Of a stretch of 45,916 bases of DNA, positions 21,311-45,916 are shown piece after piece. Position 1 is the first letter of the stretch. Every line of letters begins with the position of its first letter. Both the position numbers and the translations under genes were made by a program. Below the pieces are notes generated by a model. The model made no database searches. It saw only the letters and a program-made list of their open reading frames with translations, and was not told where the DNA came from. Source of the stretch: a virus (Duplodnaviria; Caudoviricetes); IMG/VR virus record IMGVR_UViG_3300036786_000080, positions 1 to 45,916 of that record; one strand, given 5' to 3'.

Positions 21311-21386
21311 AAAGCTGGTAATTGTCGGGACGCTCGCAACCCTTTGAATGCTGTACGATTATCAGCAACATTCAAAGGAGGCGACC

Positions 21387-21770
21387 ATGGGACGAAATTG
21401 GCGGCGTGAAGTTGCGAGGCTGTGCGTGGGCTTACTGCGTTCGGCGAATTACGGCCGGCTGCCGGGCGTGTGTGTTGCGGACTGGCGGGAGATCGCGCGG
21501 CGCTTCGGGGTGGCGCTGCACGTGACGACGCGGCCCGGGCCGCCTGGCGCGGTGATTCTGGACGATGTGATTGTGGTGCGGTCGCGGTCCACGGACCGGC
21601 AGACTTGCGCGGCGATCGCGCATGAGCTCACCGAGCTGCTGCTCACGACGGAGGTGGAGGCGCCTTACTGTCATCCCGTGTCGTGGTGTGTTTCGCAGAG
21701 TGAGGAGAGGCATCTGGTGGCGCGGGAGGTGGAGTCGCAGTTGGGCCTGCGTCGCGGTTTTGCTCATTGA
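21387..21770 (+). CDS. ImmA/IrrE-like metallopeptidase-fold protein (variant motif)
   Basis: Between repressor and attP; 'IARRFGV', 'AIAHELTELL'; AAGGAGG RBS. Confidence 0.6.
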   Translation: MGRNWRREVARLCVGLLRSANYGRLPGVCVADWREIARRFGVALHVTTRPGPPGAVILDDVIVVRSRSTDRQTCAAIAHELTELLLTTEVEAPYCHPVSWCVSQSEERHLVAREVESQLGLRRGFAH

Positions 21771-21813: not shown

Positions 21814-21938
21814 TTTTGAGATCGAGACCCGCTGAAACGTAGATGCGCTATCTCTTAATCAGCGGGCCGCAGGTTCAAGTCCTGCACGACCCATCATTTG
21901 GGCGAATTGATCTCAAAACGGCGGCTGTGATCTCAAAA
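21814..21938. promoter_or_regulatory. putative integrase arm-type sites
   Basis: GATCTCAAAA at 21909 and 21929, inverted copy at 21814, flanking the att core. Confidence 0.6.
21852..21896 (+). other. attP core: 3' half of tRNA-Lys(CUU)
   Basis: CTCTTAATCAGCGGGCCGCAGGTTCAAGTCCTGCACGACCCA: anticodon loop, T-arm and 3' acceptor strand of tRNA-Lys; no 5' half; adjacent to integrase. Confidence 0.9.
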
Positions 21939-22073
21939 ACAGGTCACAGCCTTTTGTAAAAAACTGAATATTTATGTAATAAATTGTAAAATGTGCATCT
22001 CGCATACACGGGCACAGCGCTACCGCGTTACCGGTGCGCATGGGCTATTCTGAGGTAAAAGGAGGGTCGTCGC

Positions 22074-23105
22074 ATGGAACAGATCGATTGGGCGGATGCT
22101 GTCGAAGACCTGCTAATGTCTAAGTCTGGGAAGGCGCCTAGAACACGTCGGTATTACGAATGTCAACTAACGCAGCTGGTAGTCTGGTCGGATGTACAGC
22201 AGATCGCGCTGCAGGACTTCACGCCGCGGCACTTTCGCGCGTATATGGCGAAGCGCGCCGATGAGGTGAAGGCGTCGACGCTTTACCACGATGCTGTCTG
22301 CGCGAAGGTGTTTTTCCGATTTTGTCGGAAGAACAAATACACCGCAAAAGATCCGTTGGCTGACTTTGAGTTCCCAAAGCCCAAGAAGCCAAACATTCCC
22401 CTACCCTCGGTAAAGCAGATCCAGGACTTGCTCGCTGCCATCGATCGCAAGTGGGATATCCGGCGTAATCCTGAGATCCGTTGGCAGGATAAGGAGTTCA
22501 GGGGATTCTTTCGCGACCGAGACTACGCGATCGCATGTTTGCTGGTTGAGATCGGCTGCCGAATCGACGAGGGTCTCCGGATCAAGCTCGCGGATGTTGT
22601 GATCGAGGGTGAATCAGGAACGATCACTTTGCGGGACACAAAGGGCGGAAACGACCGGCAGGTCCCGATTGGACCGACGTTTATCGCTGCATCCGCGCCT
22701 TGGATGAAAACGCGCGTCCGGTTGGAGAAGGCGAGCCAGGCCAGAGTCGCGCGCGGCGAGTCACCCACGGTCGGCGACTCGCTTTTTCTCACTCGGTATG
22801 GTGACGTGATGTCGCCGTCGAGTTTCGCAAAATCCTGGAGGTTGTATCTAAAGTGGGCGGGAATCGAAAGATTCACCAGGCACCAGGTGCGACACTTTAC
22901 GCTCACGCAGGTCGTGAGGAAGAATCCACGGTCGGCGCAGCTGCTGGCCGGCCATGCGGATATTTCGACCACCATCAAGAACTACGACCATACGCATTTA
23001 GATGATGTGCGAGCGGATCACACGGTCGTAAACCCGCTGGGGGCGCTGCTGATTAACAAGCGGTCGGCGGCCGCAAAGAAGCCGCGGCTGGATCTGAAGG
23101 GGTAG
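22074..23105 (+). CDS. int: tyrosine integrase/recombinase
   Basis: Catalytic set GCRIDE, TKGG, HQVR, AGHAD, NY; AAGGAGG RBS. Confidence 0.93.
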   Translation: MEQIDWADAVEDLLMSKSGKAPRTRRYYECQLTQLVVWSDVQQIALQDFTPRHFRAYMAKRADEVKASTLYHDAVCAKVFFRFCRKNKYTAKDPLADFEFPKPKKPNIPLPSVKQIQDLLAAIDRKWDIRRNPEIRWQDKEFRGFFRDRDYAIACLLVEIGCRIDEGLRIKLADVVIEGESGTITLRDTKGGNDRQVPIGPTFIAASAPWMKTRVRLEKASQARVARGESPTVGDSLFLTRYGDVMSPSSFAKSWRLYLKWAGIERFTRHQVRHFTLTQVVRKNPRSAQLLAGHADISTTIKNYDHTHLDDVRADHTVVNPLGALLINKRSAAAKKPRLDLKG

Positions 23106-23118
23106 GAGCTTAGTTCGC

Positions 23119-23187
23119 GCCCCTGCCAGTGGACCTGGGCCCTGATTTCGAAGTCCGGGAGCGTCAGTTCAATTCTGACCGGGGGCG
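23119..23187 (+). ncRNA. tRNA-like RNA, copy 1 (non-canonical)
   Basis: 7-bp acceptor GCCCCTG/CGGGGGC; D-like CCAG-TGGAC-CTGG; 20-nt third arm; T-arm GTCAG-TTCAATT-CTGAC. Confidence 0.65.
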
Positions 23188-23203
23188 AACTAAATAGGCA
23201 CGC

Positions 23204-23273
23204 GCCCCCGCCAGTGGACCTGGCCCCGAGAGTCGCATTTTGGGAAGCGTCAGTTCAATTCTGACCGGGGGCG
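23204..23273 (+). ncRNA. tRNA-like RNA, copy 2 (non-canonical)
   Basis: Acceptor GCCCCCG/CGGGGGC; identical D-like and T arms; diverged but still pairing third arm. Confidence 0.65.
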
Positions 23274-23352
23274 AACCTATCCTGTTATACCATTCGAGAG
23301 GTAGGAACTGTGCCGAAAATTGTAAGAAACTGTAAATTATTGGAAAGTATGT

Positions 23353-23388
23353 GCCAAACGACATTGAAGGCTCTCAATGTCGTTTGGC
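23353..23388. terminator. perfect 15-bp hairpin between convergent units
   Basis: GCCAAACGACATTGA-AGGCTC-TCAATGTCGTTTGGC; no clear U-tract. Confidence 0.55.
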
Positions 23389-29602: not shown

Positions 29603-30271
29603 GTGCAATCGATGATGGCTGCCGCGGCTCGGAATTCTGCGGTCGACCAGCTGATTATGCAGTACCGCGGCCTGCCGCGCAGTACGGCTCTCGCGCTCAA
29701 TGTGCACTTGCCAGGGCTTGACCTGGAAGACTTGATTGCCGCCGGGAATATCGGGCTATGCAAGGCAGCCAATTCTTACGATCCGGCGAGGCCAACCTCT
29801 TTCAAGACGTGGGCCATTACGCTGATCCGTGGGGAGATCCGCGAGATGCTACGCGGTTGGAATTTCCTTCCGCGCAGCGTGGTGGACAAGATCAGGCTGC
29901 AGAAGCAGAAGAGTGACACTGGCAGCCAAAACGACATTGTGCCCGACCTTGGTATTTCGCTCGATGCTTATCAATCCGCCCTCGGCAATGATACCAGTTT
30001 CACTCTCAGGGACGTGCTGAGCGACGGGGCGACGGCTCCAGAGGCGCTCGCAATTGCGGACGAGACGCGGAGGGTCATTGCTGCTGCCATCGATCGATTG
30101 CCGGACCGAGAGCGGGAATTAGTTCACCTTTACTATTTTGAGCGACTGACATTCAAGGCGATTGGCGCCAAATTCGGCATTTCGGAGAGCCGAGCGTATC
30201 AGCTTCATGCGCAGGCCATTAAGCGGCTGCAGCAGGATGGCGCGCTGGGCGAGTTGTTCTGCCAGGATTAG
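29603..30271 (+). CDS. FliA/WhiG (sigma-28)-like sigma factor
   Basis: 'EDLIAAGNIGL.KA...YDP.R..SFKTWA..IRGEI...LR..NFLPRS', 'LPDRERELVHLYY.E.LTFK.IG..FGISESR..QLH'. Confidence 0.9.
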   Translation: MQSMMAAAARNSAVDQLIMQYRGLPRSTALALNVHLPGLDLEDLIAAGNIGLCKAANSYDPARPTSFKTWAITLIRGEIREMLRGWNFLPRSVVDKIRLQKQKSDTGSQNDIVPDLGISLDAYQSALGNDTSFTLRDVLSDGATAPEALAIADETRRVIAAAIDRLPDRERELVHLYYFERLTFKAIGAKFGISESRAYQLHAQAIKRLQQDGALGELFCQD

Positions 30272-33941: not shown

Positions 33942-34123
33942 AAATCATCAAGCCTGGCTTTCCGCCGAAAGAGAAGATAGTGCGTCTGCAATGCGGCGAT
34001 TGCGGCTGCGAGTTTGAGGCGAAAGCGGGAGAGATCGAGCGCGTTCCCGACCAACGCGACGGCGATTTCTGGCGGTGCAAATGTCCCCAGGCCGGCTGCG
34101 GAAAGCAAGTCACCTCCTATTGA
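33938..34123 (+). CDS. small Zn-ribbon protein
   Basis: CGDCGC...CPQAGC; ATGA overlap. Confidence 0.6.
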   Translation: MKIIKPGFPPKEKIVRLQCGDCGCEFEAKAGEIERVPDQRDGDFWRCKCPQAGCGKQVTSY

Positions 34124-34263
34124 AGCCACAGGGCCGCAAGGAAGTCGCGGAAGCCGTTGTGATTGCCGCGCTCTCTTCGCTGGCCACGGGGCTGATGCAC
34201 CTGGGCTTTCGAAGAGGCGAAGTACAGGGTGTGGCTGGTCCGCAAGAAGCGAAAGAAGGCCAA

Positions 34264-34479
34264 ATGAAGCATACGCAGGTTGAGAGCAGCAATGTTCACT
34301 CGATTGGGCATGACCCGGAGAAGATGCTGATGGAGGTGACCTTCAAGAATGGGGGCACTTACGTCTACAGCGATGTTTCGGTCGCTGCTTTCGCCGGGCT
34401 GCTGCTGGCGCCGTCTGTCGGAAGCCATTTGCATCAGCACTTCAAGGGTAAGCATCGAGAGTTCAGGAAGGTGGAGTAG
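34264..34479 (+). CDS. KTSC domain protein
   Basis: 'VESSNVHSIGHD...VTFKNGGTYVYSDV...APSVGS'. Confidence 0.9.
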   Translation: MKHTQVESSNVHSIGHDPEKMLMEVTFKNGGTYVYSDVSVAAFAGLLLAPSVGSHLHQHFKGKHREFRKVE

Positions 34480-41432: not shown

Positions 41433-41531
41433 GATAACGCTGTTCGGCGGCTGTTTTGGCGCTGGGCTGGTTACCTCGCGATGTGGACGCACAAACAGGG
41501 CAGTTGTCGGATCGAACCCCTTCCCATTTGG

Positions 41532-43005
41532 CTTATCTTGTCCCGTAAAGGAGTGGGGTTGGGATTTTATTTGCCATACTTTGCGTTATATGTTTATCAC
41601 GAGTTACGCGGCGAAAGGAGAGCCGCCATGCAAAACGATTGGGCCTACAATGAAATTGCTCGCGTCCCGATCTGGGATCCGCGCTGCCGTCGCACTCTGG
41701 TCGCTGCCTGTGAAGTGCTCGCAGAAAACGCCCAGCTGTCCTTCTCGCAGGCGCTTGGAAGCCGACGAAAGGCGGTTTCGCGTATATTGCATCACCAAGA
41801 CACCACACAACAGGATCTCTTGAGCGGGCATATCCGTGCGACGCAATTGCGCTGCCAGCAGGAAGAACTCATCCTCATCGCGAGCGACACCAGCACTTTC
41901 GATTTCAGCTCTCACAAAGCAACCCAAGGTCTGGGACCCATCAGTGATAAAGCGCATCCCCTGGGCTTCTTTGTCCATTCCGCGCTTGCCATGACCCAGC
42001 AAGGCGTTCCGCTGGGTTTACTGGATCAGAGCAGTTGGGCGCGCGATCCTAATGAGGTCGGCATCGCCAAGCAGCGACGTCAACGTGCCTACGCCGACAA
42101 AGAGAGCCACAAATGGCTGCAAGCCATGCGTGCCGTCGAGAAGAGGCTCTCTCCCACGCAAAAAGCCGTTCTGATCCAAGACCGAGAAGCCGATGTCTTT
42201 GAGTTCTTTTCGGCGCCTCGATACGAGGGACTGGACCTGATCATTCGCGCCACTCAGCCTCGTCGTATCGATACGCGCGGGGAGGTCGGTCCCACCACTC
42301 TGTTTGCGGCGATGGCTCATTCTGGCGTAATAGCGACTAAAACCATTCATGTGGCTGCTGGGCCAAAGCGCGTAGAGCGAGATGCTGTTCTGACCGTGCG
42401 GGCAGCCACGGTTTTTATTCGTCCTCCGATGCATGGTTCTGATCCTAACGGTCCGGCAATCCGTTTATCGGTGGTACGAGCGTCCGAAGAGAACCCTCCC
42501 GAAGGAGTGAAAGAGCCTCTGGAATGGGTGCTTTTGACCACGCTTGCTGTGGAGGGTGCCGAGGATGCCTTACATGTCCTCGACTACTACACGTTTCGCT
42601 GGCGCATCGAACGGTTCCATTTCGTTCTGAAGTCTGGCTGTGGCTACGAGAAACTTCAGTTGGACCGTCTGGACACCTTGGAGAAAGCGTTAAGCCTCTA
42701 CAGCATTGTCGCCTGGCGTTTGTTGTACTTGACCTATCTGGCCCGCGATGTGCCTGATGCTCCCTGTCAAGAGGCGCTCTCAGTATTCGAAAAGGACGTC
42801 TTGGAACTCTACAACCGCAAACCGATCAAGACCGTCAGAGATGCAGTCATGGCTGTTGCCAAGTTAGCTGGCTTCGTTTGCGTGCCCTCCGCACCCAATC
42901 CAGGTGTCAAAACACTCTGGCAAGGCTTACGCAAGCTACAAGACATGACCGCAGGCTATCTATTAGCCCGCCAACCCCCCCTCCTGACCTACGGGACAAG
43001 ATAAG
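41532..43005 (+). mobile_element. complete IS4-family (IS50-like) insertion sequence, 1474 bp
   Basis: Perfect 16-bp TIR CTTATCTTGTCCCGTA (41532-41547, 42990-43005); 9-bp TSD CCCATTTGG (41523-41531, 43006-43014). Confidence 0.95.
41628..43004 (+). CDS. IS4-family DDE transposase
   Basis: 'SDTS', 'KESHKW', 'DREAD', YREK-type 'Y.FRWRIERFHFVLKSG', 'PGVKTLWQG'. Confidence 0.95.
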   Translation: MQNDWAYNEIARVPIWDPRCRRTLVAACEVLAENAQLSFSQALGSRRKAVSRILHHQDTTQQDLLSGHIRATQLRCQQEELILIASDTSTFDFSSHKATQGLGPISDKAHPLGFFVHSALAMTQQGVPLGLLDQSSWARDPNEVGIAKQRRQRAYADKESHKWLQAMRAVEKRLSPTQKAVLIQDREADVFEFFSAPRYEGLDLIIRATQPRRIDTRGEVGPTTLFAAMAHSGVIATKTIHVAAGPKRVERDAVLTVRAATVFIRPPMHGSDPNGPAIRLSVVRASEENPPEGVKEPLEWVLLTTLAVEGAEDALHVLDYYTFRWRIERFHFVLKSGCGYEKLQLDRLDTLEKALSLYSIVAWRLLYLTYLARDVPDAPCQEALSVFEKDVLELYNRKPIKTVRDAVMAVAKLAGFVCVPSAPNPGVKTLWQGLRKLQDMTAGYLLARQPPLLTYGTR

Positions 43006-43716: not shown

Positions 43717-43830
43717 GCGGTTTGAATGGGACGGATAGGACCTATGGGACAGATAGGACTTATACCGCTGACCCTCACCCCTACCCCTCTCCCAGAAAAC
43801 GGGAGAGGGGCTATTTGTTTGGAGTGATTG

Positions 43831-45916
43831 ATGCCTGAGATTGCGAGTTTAAGCGTTGGCCTCTACGGGAACCCTTCGCCTTTAGCGGCTACGCTTGCCT
43901 CGCTGGATGTGATGTTTCAGGGGATCGTGAAGTCGGCGCAGGGAGCTGGGGCGGCGATCGATGCTGCTTTCGCGGGTGAGACCGGGCGGCAGACTAAGCT
44001 GCAGGCTGCTTTTGCGAAGACTACCGGAACTGTGAGCGACCTGGGGTTGGCGGCTCAGATCTCCGGTGGGAATATGCAGGCCGCCTTTTCTTCGCAGGCA
44101 ACACAGATGCAAGCGATCGGAGCGAGTGCTTCGGCCGCGGCCCTGCAGATCGAGGCGATGCGCGGGGCGGCGGGGGCTGGGGTTCCGAGTTCCGGGTTCG
44201 GAGTTCCGGGTGCTCCGGTGGTGACGACGAGTGGCGGCGGTGGATCGAGTGTTTCGGCGGCGGGGGCGAATGAGGCGAACGCTGCTTTCACGGCGCTGGG
44301 ATCCACGCTGCGCTCTGTTGGCACGATGCTTTCCTTATATGTGACAGCTCCGATCGCGCTGCTGGGCGGGATCGCGTTCAAGCAGGCGGCGGATTTCGAG
44401 CAGGCGATGGCTCGGATCCAGGGCACGTTCAATCTGCCGAAGACAGCGATCAGCGAGCTTTCGGCGCTGGCGGTGAAGCTCGGTGCGGATATCTCGCTGC
44501 CCAATACTTCCGCGGTGGATGCGGCCCAGGCGCTGCAGCAACTCATGGCGTCTGGTTTGTCGATGAAGGATGCGATGGCCGCGGCTCGGACCGTGCTGCA
44601 GCTCTCCGCGGTCGCGATGATCGATAACAAGACGGCCGCGATGATCACGGCCCAGGCGCTCAATGCTTACGGCCTGGCCGGCACGCAGGCCTCGATGGTG
44701 ACCGATCTGCTGGTCAACGGGATGCGAGCGACGGGCACTTCGGCCGAATCGTTCTCCAAGGGACTGACGACGGTCGCGCCGGCGGCGCAGCTGGCCAACC
44801 AGGGCATCCAGGACATGGCGACCGGAGTTGCCATGCTGGTCCGCGCGGGAATGACGGCCGGCTCGGCCGGTACCGCGCTGTCGACCATGCTCATGCGGCT
44901 TGCCAATCCGACCGCGGCGGCCAAGTCGTTGATGAGCGAGTTTAACATCCAGGTGCGCAATCTGGACGGCACGATGAAGCCTCTGCCGGCCATTTTTGAG
45001 GAGTTCAAGAATAAGCTCGGTCCGGCTGCCACGGTGACGAAGGCGTTCGGCGGCGACATCGATGAGATGGACAAGAAGCTGAAGGCTGCCGAGGCGACCT
45101 TCAAGACCGCTCAGAAGACGATGGCGGATCTGCCGCCGGTAATCGCTCAGCAGAATGCGCGGCTCTCGGATCTGCGCCGGAGTCTGGCCGATGTGGATGA
45201 GCCGGCTCGCAAGCTGACTTCCACGATCGCCGATGAGAAGCAGAAGCTCGCGCTGCTCACGGAAGAGATGAACCGGCACAACACGGAGGGCCTGGCCAAG
45301 ATGGCTCGGGCCAACGTGGATGCGAAGGGCAGGATCGCTGAGACCAGTTTGGAGATCGGCGTCCAGCGAAACAACCTGGCGAAGCTGCGCCAGGAGCTCG
45401 CGCAGATGCAGGAGGCTGACATCGAGGCGGGCGGTACCGGGCGCTCTCCGGCGATCATGGAGAAGCAGCTCGAGATCGTGCGGCTTTCCAACTCCATCCG
45501 GACCAATCGCGAGGACATCGTCGATTGGAAAAAGCAGATTGCCGACAACGATCAGCAGATGCGGACCGGCCTGGAGGCTACGAAGGAGAAGAAGCTCCGG
45601 ATCGATGAGCTCTCAGGCTCTTTGAAAGAAAACGAGAAGAAGCTCGACGACTGGAATTCCGCCGGCAAGGCGGCCAAGACCGCCGATCTGAACGCTTCGA
45701 TCGGAGAGCTGAACCACCAGCTGGCTGACAATAAGGCGAAATTGGTGGATGCCGCGAAGGCGCAGGATGCTCTGAATGTGGCGCGGCAGAACGCGCAGCG
45801 GGTGACTGTCGCGATGACGCAGGCCGATCGAGATAAGATCGTCGGAGACATCTTCGGGCAGCGGGGCTTCAAGCCGATCGAGATCGCGATGAAGTTCAAC
45901 CCCTCTGGCTATGAGG
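43831..45916 (+). CDS. tape measure protein, N-terminal part (3'-truncated by window edge)
   Basis: ATG after GGAG; 'LYVTAPIALLGG..FKQAADFEQAM', 'AGTALSTML.RL..PT' TP901-type core; no stop to window end. Confidence 0.9.
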   Translation, partial: MPEIASLSVGLYGNPSPLAATLASLDVMFQGIVKSAQGAGAAIDAAFAGETGRQTKLQAAFAKTTGTVSDLGLAAQISGGNMQAAFSSQATQMQAIGASASAAALQIEAMRGAAGAGVPSSGFGVPGAPVVTTSGGGGSSVSAAGANEANAAFTALGSTLRSVGTMLSLYVTAPIALLGGIAFKQAADFEQAMARIQGTFNLPKTAISELSALAVKLGADISLPNTSAVDAAQALQQLMASGLSMKDAMAAARTVLQLSAVAMIDNKTAAMITAQALNAYGLAGTQASMVTDLLVNGMRATGTSAESFSKGLTTVAPAAQLANQGIQDMATGVAMLVRAGMTAGSAGTALSTMLMRLANPTAAAKSLMSEFNIQVRNLDGTMKPLPAIFEEFKNKLGPAATVTKAFGGDIDEMDKKLKAAEATFKTAQKTMADLPPVIAQQNARLSDLRRSLADVDEPARKLTSTIADEKQKLALLTEEMNRHNTEGLAKMARANVDAKGRIAETSLEIGVQRNNLAKLRQELAQMQEADIEAGGTGRSPAIMEKQLEIVRLSNSIRTNREDIVDWKKQIADNDQQMRTGLEATKEKKLRIDELSGSLKENEKKLDDWNSAGKAAKTADLNASIGELNHQLADNKAKLVDAAKAQDALNVARQNAQRVTVAMTQADRDKIVGDIFGQRGFKPIEIAMKFNPSGYE

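What the first reader, a model, noticed from the sequence alone, without database searches (positions are those of the whole stretch)
23111..23280. Tandem pair of non-canonical tRNA-mimic RNAs directly downstream of the integrase
Seen: two ~70-nt units (23119-23187, 23204-23273). Each has a 7-bp acceptor-like stem, an identical D-like hairpin (CCAG-TGGAC-CTGG) and a textbook T-arm (GTCAG-TTCAATT-CTGAC). The third arm differs in sequence but keeps the same geometry: 20 nt, ~7-bp stem, 6-nt loop NTCGNA (TTCGAA vs GTCGCA). G-U pairs favour the + strand. There is no acceptor/D linker, no 7-nt anticodon loop and no encoded CCA. The flanks extend the acceptor helix (TAGTTC/GAACTA; ATAGG/CCTAT). Established: small D-loop, long anticodon stem and short variable loop recall tRNA-Pyl geometry, but these cannot decode normally. 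Inference: a possibly undescribed phage ncRNA class expressed in lysogens with int. It could act as a decoy for tRNA-targeting defence nucleases, an RNase P/Z processing signal controlling int mRNA, or a tRNA-elbow mimic.
Basis: partly seen in the sequence, partly recalled or inferred. Interest (0 to 1): 0.9.

Follow-up and report, generated by a model that had tools for sequence, protein, structure and literature searches.

The report
Twin mimics of compact arginine tRNA
Two tandem tRNA-shaped sequences just behind a soil phage's integrase gene match a compact, often unannotated type of arginine tRNA found in many phage tRNA clusters, but their predicted decoding loop is one base short, so they likely act as RNA-processing signals rather than as decoders.

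Summary
The two units are real (23119-23187, 23204-23273), 13 nt behind the integrase of a temperate siphophage whose host is likely Armatimonadota. They are not a class from nowhere. They match a compact tRNA-Arg fold with no acceptor/D linker: 42 distinct genes in viral, metagenome and bacterial loci, all with 7-nt loops and Arg anticodons, strongly covarying, 25 missed by ARAGORN. A model built without the window scores the units 62 and 58 bits (ordinary host tRNAs at most 45.5). So the missing linker does not itself rule out decoding. What sets the pair apart: 6-nt loops, A74 instead of C74, and leader-trailer helices. The copies differ at 9 of 20 arm positions but 2 of 49 elsewhere. Best reading (0.4): non-decoding elbow/acceptor mimics in the int 3' UTR, likely cut by RNase P. 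Rivals: relic (0.25), trans decoy (0.2), odd decoder (0.12). No second locus with such a pair and no RNA data were found. I did not find the fold described in ten literature searches. The scan noted a similar idea in another phage (e1-173175, unchecked).

The parts
21852..21893 (+). attP-like 3' half of tRNA-Lys(CUU), upstream of int; separate from the two units
   Evidence: Sequence; related Armatimonadota integrases sit behind tRNA-Lys(CUU) or its half in several loci; contigs of the holding run break at 21852-21881 with other sequence joined before 21852
21923..21951 (+). Terminator-like hairpin with T tail after the tRNA-Lys half
   Evidence: 3 such sites found, 2.0 expected in shuffles, so weak by itself
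22074..23105 (+). Tyrosine integrase, 343 aa; stop codon 13 nt before unit 1
   Evidence: Pfam PF00589, phrog_1; relatives at 30-40% identity in Armatimonadota genomes
23110..23116 (+). Leader of unit 1; pairs with 23187-23193 (7 bp), leaving a 2-nt bulge at the predicted RNase P site
   Evidence: (I21)
23119..23187 (+). Unit 1: zero-linker tRNA-Arg(UCG)-like RNA whose loop lacks position 32 (6-nt loop at 23147-23152)
   Evidence: 62.0 bits with model R1, aligned with a gap at position 32; register energies
23194..23198 (+). Leader of unit 2; pairs with 23276-23280 (5 bp) in the same register as unit 1, with two double changes
   Evidence: and the sequence
23204..23273 (+). Unit 2: same body (1 change in the acceptor), different arm (23225-23244), 6-nt loop at 23232-23237
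   Evidence: 57.9 bits with R1; 7 of 7 arm pairs in the 6-nt register
23353..23388 (.). Perfect 15-bp inverted repeat between the cassette and a convergent ORF; likely end of the transcript
   Evidence: I4; not called as a terminator by the consensus scan

Best explanation
The two units match compact, linker-less tRNA-Arg genes in body but are predicted to fold a 6-nt anticodon loop, so they likely no longer decode and likely serve as tRNA-shaped processing signals in the 3' untranslated end of the integrase message. Shown: family match, loop size in the energy model, frozen acceptor/D/T arms beside a changed third arm, closing flank helices, position 13 nt after the int stop. Inferred: co-transcription with int up to the hairpin at 23353-23388; recognition of the D/T elbow and the acceptor-T helix by host RNase P (established knowledge: it does not read the anticodon arm); a cut at the bulge before G1 that trims the int mRNA, changes its lifetime and frees two ~70-nt RNAs. 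The direction of the effect on Int level is not known.
For: Family match 62.0 and 57.9 bits, next hit in the window 12.7; ordinary tRNAs of five Armatimonadota genomes at most 45.5. All 23 training members prefer a 7-nt loop; both units prefer a 6-nt loop, by 2.8 and 5.9 kcal/mol. Between copies 9 of 20 arm positions differ against 2 of 49 elsewhere (Fisher p = 1e-4, chosen after seeing the data): what RNase P reads is frozen, what the ribosome and anticodon nucleases read is free. Unit 2 lacks U33 and purine 37 if UCG is the anticodon. 39 of 42 family genes have C74, none A74; both units have A74. Leader-trailer helices of 7 and 5 bp; 1 of 42 family genes reaches 5, none 6.
Against: Only two copies in one genome: no unit in 30 integrase loci, 35 terminase-related loci or 5 whole related records, so the integrase family does not need it. 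That the arm stays paired is weak evidence: chance 0.016 in one direction, 0.16 in the other. Near-identity of the stems at sequence level exceeds what a structure-reading enzyme needs (family stems covary freely) and fits gene conversion or recent duplication as well. A paired leader and trailer could block RNase P instead. Both loops keep UCG, and A20 and G73 are kept, which a pure processing signal does not require.
Confidence: 0.4

Rival explanations
1. Relic: a captured zero-linker tRNA-Arg(UCG) lost a loop base, was duplicated, and the copies are kept alike by recent duplication or gene conversion; no present function.
For: Singleton in all searches; unit 1 equals the family loop CTTCGAA minus one base; loss of C74; att regions collect stray DNA (general knowledge).
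Against: Changes cluster in the arm (9 of 20 against 2 of 49) yet leave it paired; two unrelated flank sequences each close a helix in the same register; no broken pair in acceptor, D or T stems in either copy.
Confidence: 0.25
2. Trans-acting decoys: the units are released, get CCA, may be charged by ArgRS, and in the lysogen soak up or resist a tRNA-targeting toxin or defence enzyme that reads the acceptor end or elbow.
For: A20, UCG in the loop and G73 are the bacterial ArgRS identity set (PMC9976931, passages). Irregular tRNAs that are charged but do not decode occur near toxin-antitoxin genes (PMC5389517, results). Phage tRNAs counter tRNA-targeting defence (PMC10264068, passages). The units lie on the repressor-int strand.
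Against: The published cases I saw work by replacing the cut tRNA with a decoding one (PMC12445682, abstract). An anticodon-nuclease decoy should conserve the loop, which differs between copies. No defence or toxin family among 28 unassigned ORFs, apart from one HTH hit.
Confidence: 0.2
3. Odd decoders: the arm slips into the family register and shows 7-nt loops with U33 and A37 (anticodons CGA and CGC), putting Arg at Ser or Ala codons; or the open 8-nt loop acts as a frameshift suppressor.
For: The D-to-T distances (24 and 25 nt) are the two family lengths; R1 aligns unit 2 with a 7-nt loop; tRNA0 of Mukai et al. shows one body with varied anticodon arms (supplement rows) and allo-tRNAs mistranslate in E. 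coli.
Against: That register costs 2.8 and 5.9 kcal/mol and leaves 2 and 1 mismatches; it puts G at 35 where ArgRS wants C; GCG is 564 of 10,508 codons in 35 phage ORFs, so misreading would hurt the phage.
Confidence: 0.12
4. Antisense or guide RNA with a constant scaffold and a variable arm, or an att-site relic.
For: Constant body with variable insert; close to an integrase.
Against: Longest match of either arm elsewhere in the phage is 10 nt, same strand; the att core is a separate tRNA-Lys half upstream of int; no Rfam family such as C4 or Y RNA matches.
Confidence: 0.03

Closest known systems
Mycobacteriophage Myrna gene 170, annotated tRNA-Arg(CCG), and its homologue in cluster C1 phages
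   Same: Same zero-linker body, 4-bp D stem, 5-nt loop with G18 G19 A20, long anticodon stem; Myrna scores 75 bits on R1 without being in training. 193 of 204 matching phage records cover at least 80% of it; the two opened are labelled tRNA-Gly (Yucca) and a 116-nt tRNA-Arg (Phox) for the same sequence.
   Different: They have a 7-nt loop with an Arg anticodon, C74, and lie in tRNA arrays; the window's units have 6-nt loops, A74, closing flank helices and sit alone behind int.
tRNA-Pyl, above all of Methanomethylophilus alvus
   Same: No base between acceptor and D stem, 4-5 nt D-loop, extended anticodon stem (PMC7609411, passages).
   Different: M. barkeri tRNA-Pyl lacks G18G19 and the T-loop UUC (same passages) and tRNA-Pyl reads UAG; the units keep both motifs and carry Arg determinants.
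Allo-tRNAs and polycistronic irregular tRNAs (tRNA0/1/2) of Mukai et al. 2017
   Same: Irregular tRNAs in tandem on soil mobile DNA; one body with varied anticodon arms (tRNA0); some charged but not decoding.
   Different: Allo-tRNAs are 8/4 or 9/3 with a long variable arm; the tRNA0 rows seen have a normal linker; the units are 7/5 with a short variable loop and no toxin-antitoxin neighbour was found.
tRNA-like RNase P processing elements (mascRNA of MALAT1; recalled, not looked up) and lambda sib retroregulation of int (recalled)
   Same: A tRNA-shaped or nuclease-cut element at an RNA 3' end that sets its end or lifetime.
   Different: Here a full-size tRNA body in two copies; att lies upstream of int, so integration would not remove the element as it removes sib.

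Membership tests
Canonical tRNA | Found by ARAGORN or Rfam tRNA model; 2-nt acceptor/D linker | tested here: not met
Canonical tRNA | 7-nt anticodon loop with U33 and purine 37 | tested here: not met
   6-nt loop preferred in both units; a 7-nt register exists at +2.8 and +5.9 kcal/mol
Zero-linker tRNA-Arg (defined here) | 7-bp acceptor joined directly to a 4-bp D stem with G18 G19 A20, 5-bp T stem; model score above ordinary tRNAs | tested here: met
   62.0 and 57.9 bits against at most 45.5
Zero-linker tRNA-Arg (defined here) | 7-nt loop with an Arg anticodon (42 of 42) | tested here: not met
   UCG is kept inside a 6-nt loop
Zero-linker tRNA-Arg (defined here) | C74 (39 of 42) and another tRNA gene nearby (41 of 42) | tested here: not met
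   A74 in both units; no other full tRNA in the window
Arginine-accepting tRNA | A20, C35, U/G36, A/G73 present | tested here: inconclusive
   A20 and G73 present, UCG present but loop geometry altered; identity set from PMC9976931 passages
Arginine-accepting tRNA | CCA addition and charging by ArgRS | not testable with these tools
   needs bench assay
tRNA-Pyl | CUA anticodon; D-loop without G18G19 and T-loop without UUC | tested here: not met
   sequence against PMC7609411 passages
Allo-tRNA | 8/4 or 9/3 acceptor branch and long variable arm | tested here: not met
   7/5 branch, 3-4 nt variable loop; definition from PMC5389517
Rfam families (C4, Y RNA, tmRNA and others) | Match at gathering score | tested here: not met
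RNase P processing element | Cut by RNase P before G1 in a transcript | not testable with these tools
   no RNA holder listed; contigs cannot show RNA ends
att-site tRNA relic | Copy of part of the host target tRNA at the att core | tested here: not met
   the att-like core is a tRNA-Lys half at 21852-21893, upstream of int

The most novel reading that the evidence does not exclude
A widespread, undescribed compact tRNA-Arg fold (no positions 8 and 9, extended anticodon stem) decodes in phage arrays and in at least one bacterial chromosome, and this temperate phage has recycled it into a purpose-built pair of non-decoding RNAs: constant elbow and acceptor, exchangeable arm, each held in a closing helix until RNase P releases it to act as a charged decoy or switchable mis-decoder in the lysogen.
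Probability: 0.25. Interest if true: 0.85.

Novelty: new variant of a known kind. Interest (0 to 1): 0.56.

Why it matters
Two things. First, the parent fold: natural bacterial-type tRNAs without a linker between acceptor and D stem were, in what I could read, known from one tRNA-Pyl. Here 42 distinct Arg genes have it, 25 of them missed by ARAGORN at default settings, and a homologue sits in about 190 cultured mycobacteriophage records, often unlabelled or mislabelled. That affects phage tRNA counts and offers a cultured system to ask whether the fold evades tRNA-targeting enzymes. Second, the pair would be an example of a tRNA gene turned into a non-decoding mRNA-end module or decoy in a prophage. 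That part rests on one genome.

Tried and rejected
ARAGORN and Rfam: nothing. blastn of the cassette against 50,697 phage records: 3 chance hits. Exact T-arm pattern in viral contigs: 0. Integrase relatives in viral contigs: 0 with the protein, 0 with a 4-sequence alignment. The three closest integrases (47-72%) have no DNA I could fetch, so their downstream regions are unchecked. No RNA holder listed; this says nothing on expression. Pattern scan of 401 Armatimonadota genomes: 40 with a match; I read only the printed strings and saw none like the units, and the 30 loci fetched gave no hit in the structural scan. Model search of 151 Armatimonadota genomes: 1 match, but only 33 candidates a genome were scored. 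One search's viral pattern (120 loci) added only two loci with R1 hits near or above 50 bits. Guide or antisense target in the phage: longest match 10 nt. Neighbouring toxin or defence gene: none in PADLOC, NCBIfam, Pfam or the Atlas. Promoter scan: 2 sites against 1.1 expected, both on the - strand; no support either way. An 8/5 tRNA-Sec-like reading (C-1:G73) was dropped because family genes with encoded CCA also have C-1 and G73. Pope et al. 2014 on cluster M phage tRNAs is not held and was not read. Scan look-ups by sequence and place returned nothing.

Full report
Setting. The window is one 45.9-kb contig of a temperate siphophage: tail, head, terminase, primase, repressor and a tyrosine integrase at 22074-23105. 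Integrase relatives at 30-40% identity lie in Armatimonadota genomes: 10 of 11 loci are titled as this phylum's members, and 24 of 401 genomes of the phylum match. Upstream of int is the 3' half of a tRNA-Lys(CUU), 21852-21893. Several related integrases follow the same tRNA, and contigs of the holding run break there. This is the att-like core, and it is separate from the finding.

Both units are at the stated coordinates with the stated arms. They fold as cloverleaves on the + strand (z = -1.8 and -3.9). A scan for the zero-linker geometry found 0 hits in 100 resamples of the window. ARAGORN and Rfam see nothing. The shared 31-mer has about the summed depth of two copies.

The parent family. 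A pattern made of the D hairpin plus a T-loop hit 6 viral loci; 2 were tRNA-array genes with the same D arm, no linker and an Arg(UCG) loop. The metagenome scan gave 53 loci, of which 22 had intact acceptor and T stems, all with Arg anticodons; one more was cut by a contig end and 30 were chance matches. Over all 509 sequences held, the scan found 53 distinct hits: the 2 units, 42 Arg genes, 1 ordinary tRNA-Arg read in a shifted register (dropped), and 8 non-Arg hits that I did not verify, some of them ordinary tRNAs in a shifted register. Caveat: my patterns asked for GGAC in the D-loop, and A20 is an Arg determinant, so 'all Arg' is partly built in. On 23 aligned members 97.2% of cells pair and 21 of 22 pairs show changes on both sides, including all six of the anticodon stem; slid controls reach at most 46.8%. 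The structure was chosen from these sequences, which favours it.

The family looks like working tRNA. All 42 have 7-nt loops, 41 with U33; 40 have A20, 39 C74, 20 encode CCA, 41 have another tRNA gene in the locus, and ARAGORN. In 10 virus records searched whole (5 at least 90% complete), 15 of 16 zero-linker genes had no second pattern match with the same anticodon. One Armatimonadota genome, G152, has a zero-linker Arg(UCU) behind tRNA-Gly(UCC), where G001-G004 have an ordinary one, and it is the only Arg(UCU) the pattern found there; completeness is not given and a possible mobile ORF follows it. Myrna gene 170 is a member, and 193 phage records cover at least 80% of it; of two opened, one is labelled tRNA-Gly. 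M. alvus tRNA-Pyl shows that a tRNA can work without a linker (PMC7609411, passages). Decoding by this family is inferred, not shown.

The units belong to it in body only. Model R1, built without the window, scores them 62.0 and 57.9 bits; ordinary tRNAs in five host-phylum genomes reach 45.5. It aligns unit 1 as tRNA-Arg(UCG) without base 32. Three things differ. (1) Both prefer a 6-nt loop, by 2.8 and 5.9 kcal/mol, while 23 of 23 members prefer 7. (2) Both have A74. Missing CCA alone means little, as only 22 of 98 ordinary tRNAs in host-phylum loci encode it. (3) Leader and trailer pair over 7 and 5 bp in one register, with two double changes between copies; 1 of 42 members reaches 5 (null 0.002 and 0.049). 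Between the copies 9 of 20 arm positions differ against 2 of 49 elsewhere (p = 1e-4, post hoc). The arm stays paired, but the chance of that is 0.016 or 0.16 depending on direction, so this is weak.

Mechanism. The frozen parts are the elbow and acceptor-T helix, which RNase P reads (established knowledge, recalled); the free part is what the ribosome and anticodon nucleases read. With the cassette 13 nt after the int stop and a strong hairpin at 23353-23388, I think it most likely (0.4) that the pair is a processing signal at the end of the int message that yields two small RNAs. A relic kept alike by conversion is the main rival (0.25): sequence identity of the stems is more than a structure-reading enzyme needs, and the pair is a singleton. 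A trans decoy (0.2) fits the retained ArgRS set A20, C35-G36, G73 (PMC9976931, passages) and the charged but non-decoding tRNA1 of Mukai et al., but no partner gene was found. A slipped 7-nt register with U33 and A37 would give anticodons CGA and CGC (0.12); it costs energy and loses C35.

Against generality. No unit above 30.8 bits in 30 integrase loci or 35 terminase-related loci, none in 5 whole related records. The nearest integrases could not be checked. No RNA data.

Literature. Ten full-text searches of the held open library showed no description of a zero-linker tRNA-Arg or of such a pair; subscription journals are mostly not held. Seen: PMC5389517, parts 2-3 of 5 and supplement search hits, not its figures (S2, S6 could bear on novelty); PMC7609411, abstract and passages; PMC8421152, PMC9976931, PMC10264068, PMC13692257, passages; PMC12445682, abstract; others as listings only. 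Pope et al. 2014 was not available. mascRNA, sib and RNase P recognition are recalled.

Verdict. Real feature; a new variant of a known kind. The unexpected yield is the parent tRNA-Arg fold, well supported by covariation and testable in cultured phages. The function of this pair remains an inference from one genome. Interest 0.56.

Noticed in passing
L310:2500-2569 (phage Myrna); L507/L508:599-668 (phages Yucca, Phox): The zero-linker tRNA-Arg(CCG) of cluster C mycobacteriophages is labelled tRNA-Arg, tRNA-Gly(tcc), a 116-nt tRNA-Arg, or nothing, depending on the record.
   Followed up: partly
L324:1501-1570 (- strand), genome G152: An Armatimonadota chromosome has a zero-linker tRNA-Arg(UCU) in the Gly(UCC)-Arg(UCU) slot, followed on the other strand by a 286-aa Cys/His-rich ORF that looks like an HNH nuclease by eye.
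   Followed up: partly
L004:3239-3305; L288:4198-4263; L106:512-578; L496:37-176: Compact tRNA-like genes with non-Arg anticodons (Gln, Val, Thr) that may also lack the linker; one has an apparent 8-nt loop.
   Followed up: no
L115:290-360; L276:340-411 and 517-588; L106:136-207: tRNA-Arg genes with a one-base linker or a longer D stem: possible intermediates between the ordinary and the zero-linker fold.
   Followed up: no
window 41481-43004: An IS4/Tn5-like transposase lies inside the tail region, between two short ORFs upstream of the tape measure gene.
   Followed up: no
window 43800-45916 and 1-1669: The tape measure gene runs off the right end (696 codons open) and a tape measure ORF starts at the left end, so the contig looks circularly permuted, but there is no exact terminal repeat of 10 nt or more.
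   Followed up: partly
window 23098-23108 and 23276-23283: In the predicted fold the last codons and stop of int can pair with the trailer of unit 2 and enclose both units, as an alternative to unit 2's own leader helix.
   Followed up: no
window 23282-23292 (- strand): A TG-n-TATAAC extended -10-like motif, seen by eye and not called by the scan, could drive an RNA antisense to the units and int.
   Followed up: no
window 21348-21770: ORF between repressor and att with a weak IrrE/ImmA-type peptidase hit (E = 0.12): a likely anti-repressor protease.
   Followed up: partly
window 29603-30271 and 34075-34479: The phage encodes its own sigma-70-type factor and a KTSC-domain protein.
   Followed up: no
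L128:7130-7369: A CRISPR-like repeat array starts just downstream of a related integrase in an Armatimonadales genome.
   Followed up: no
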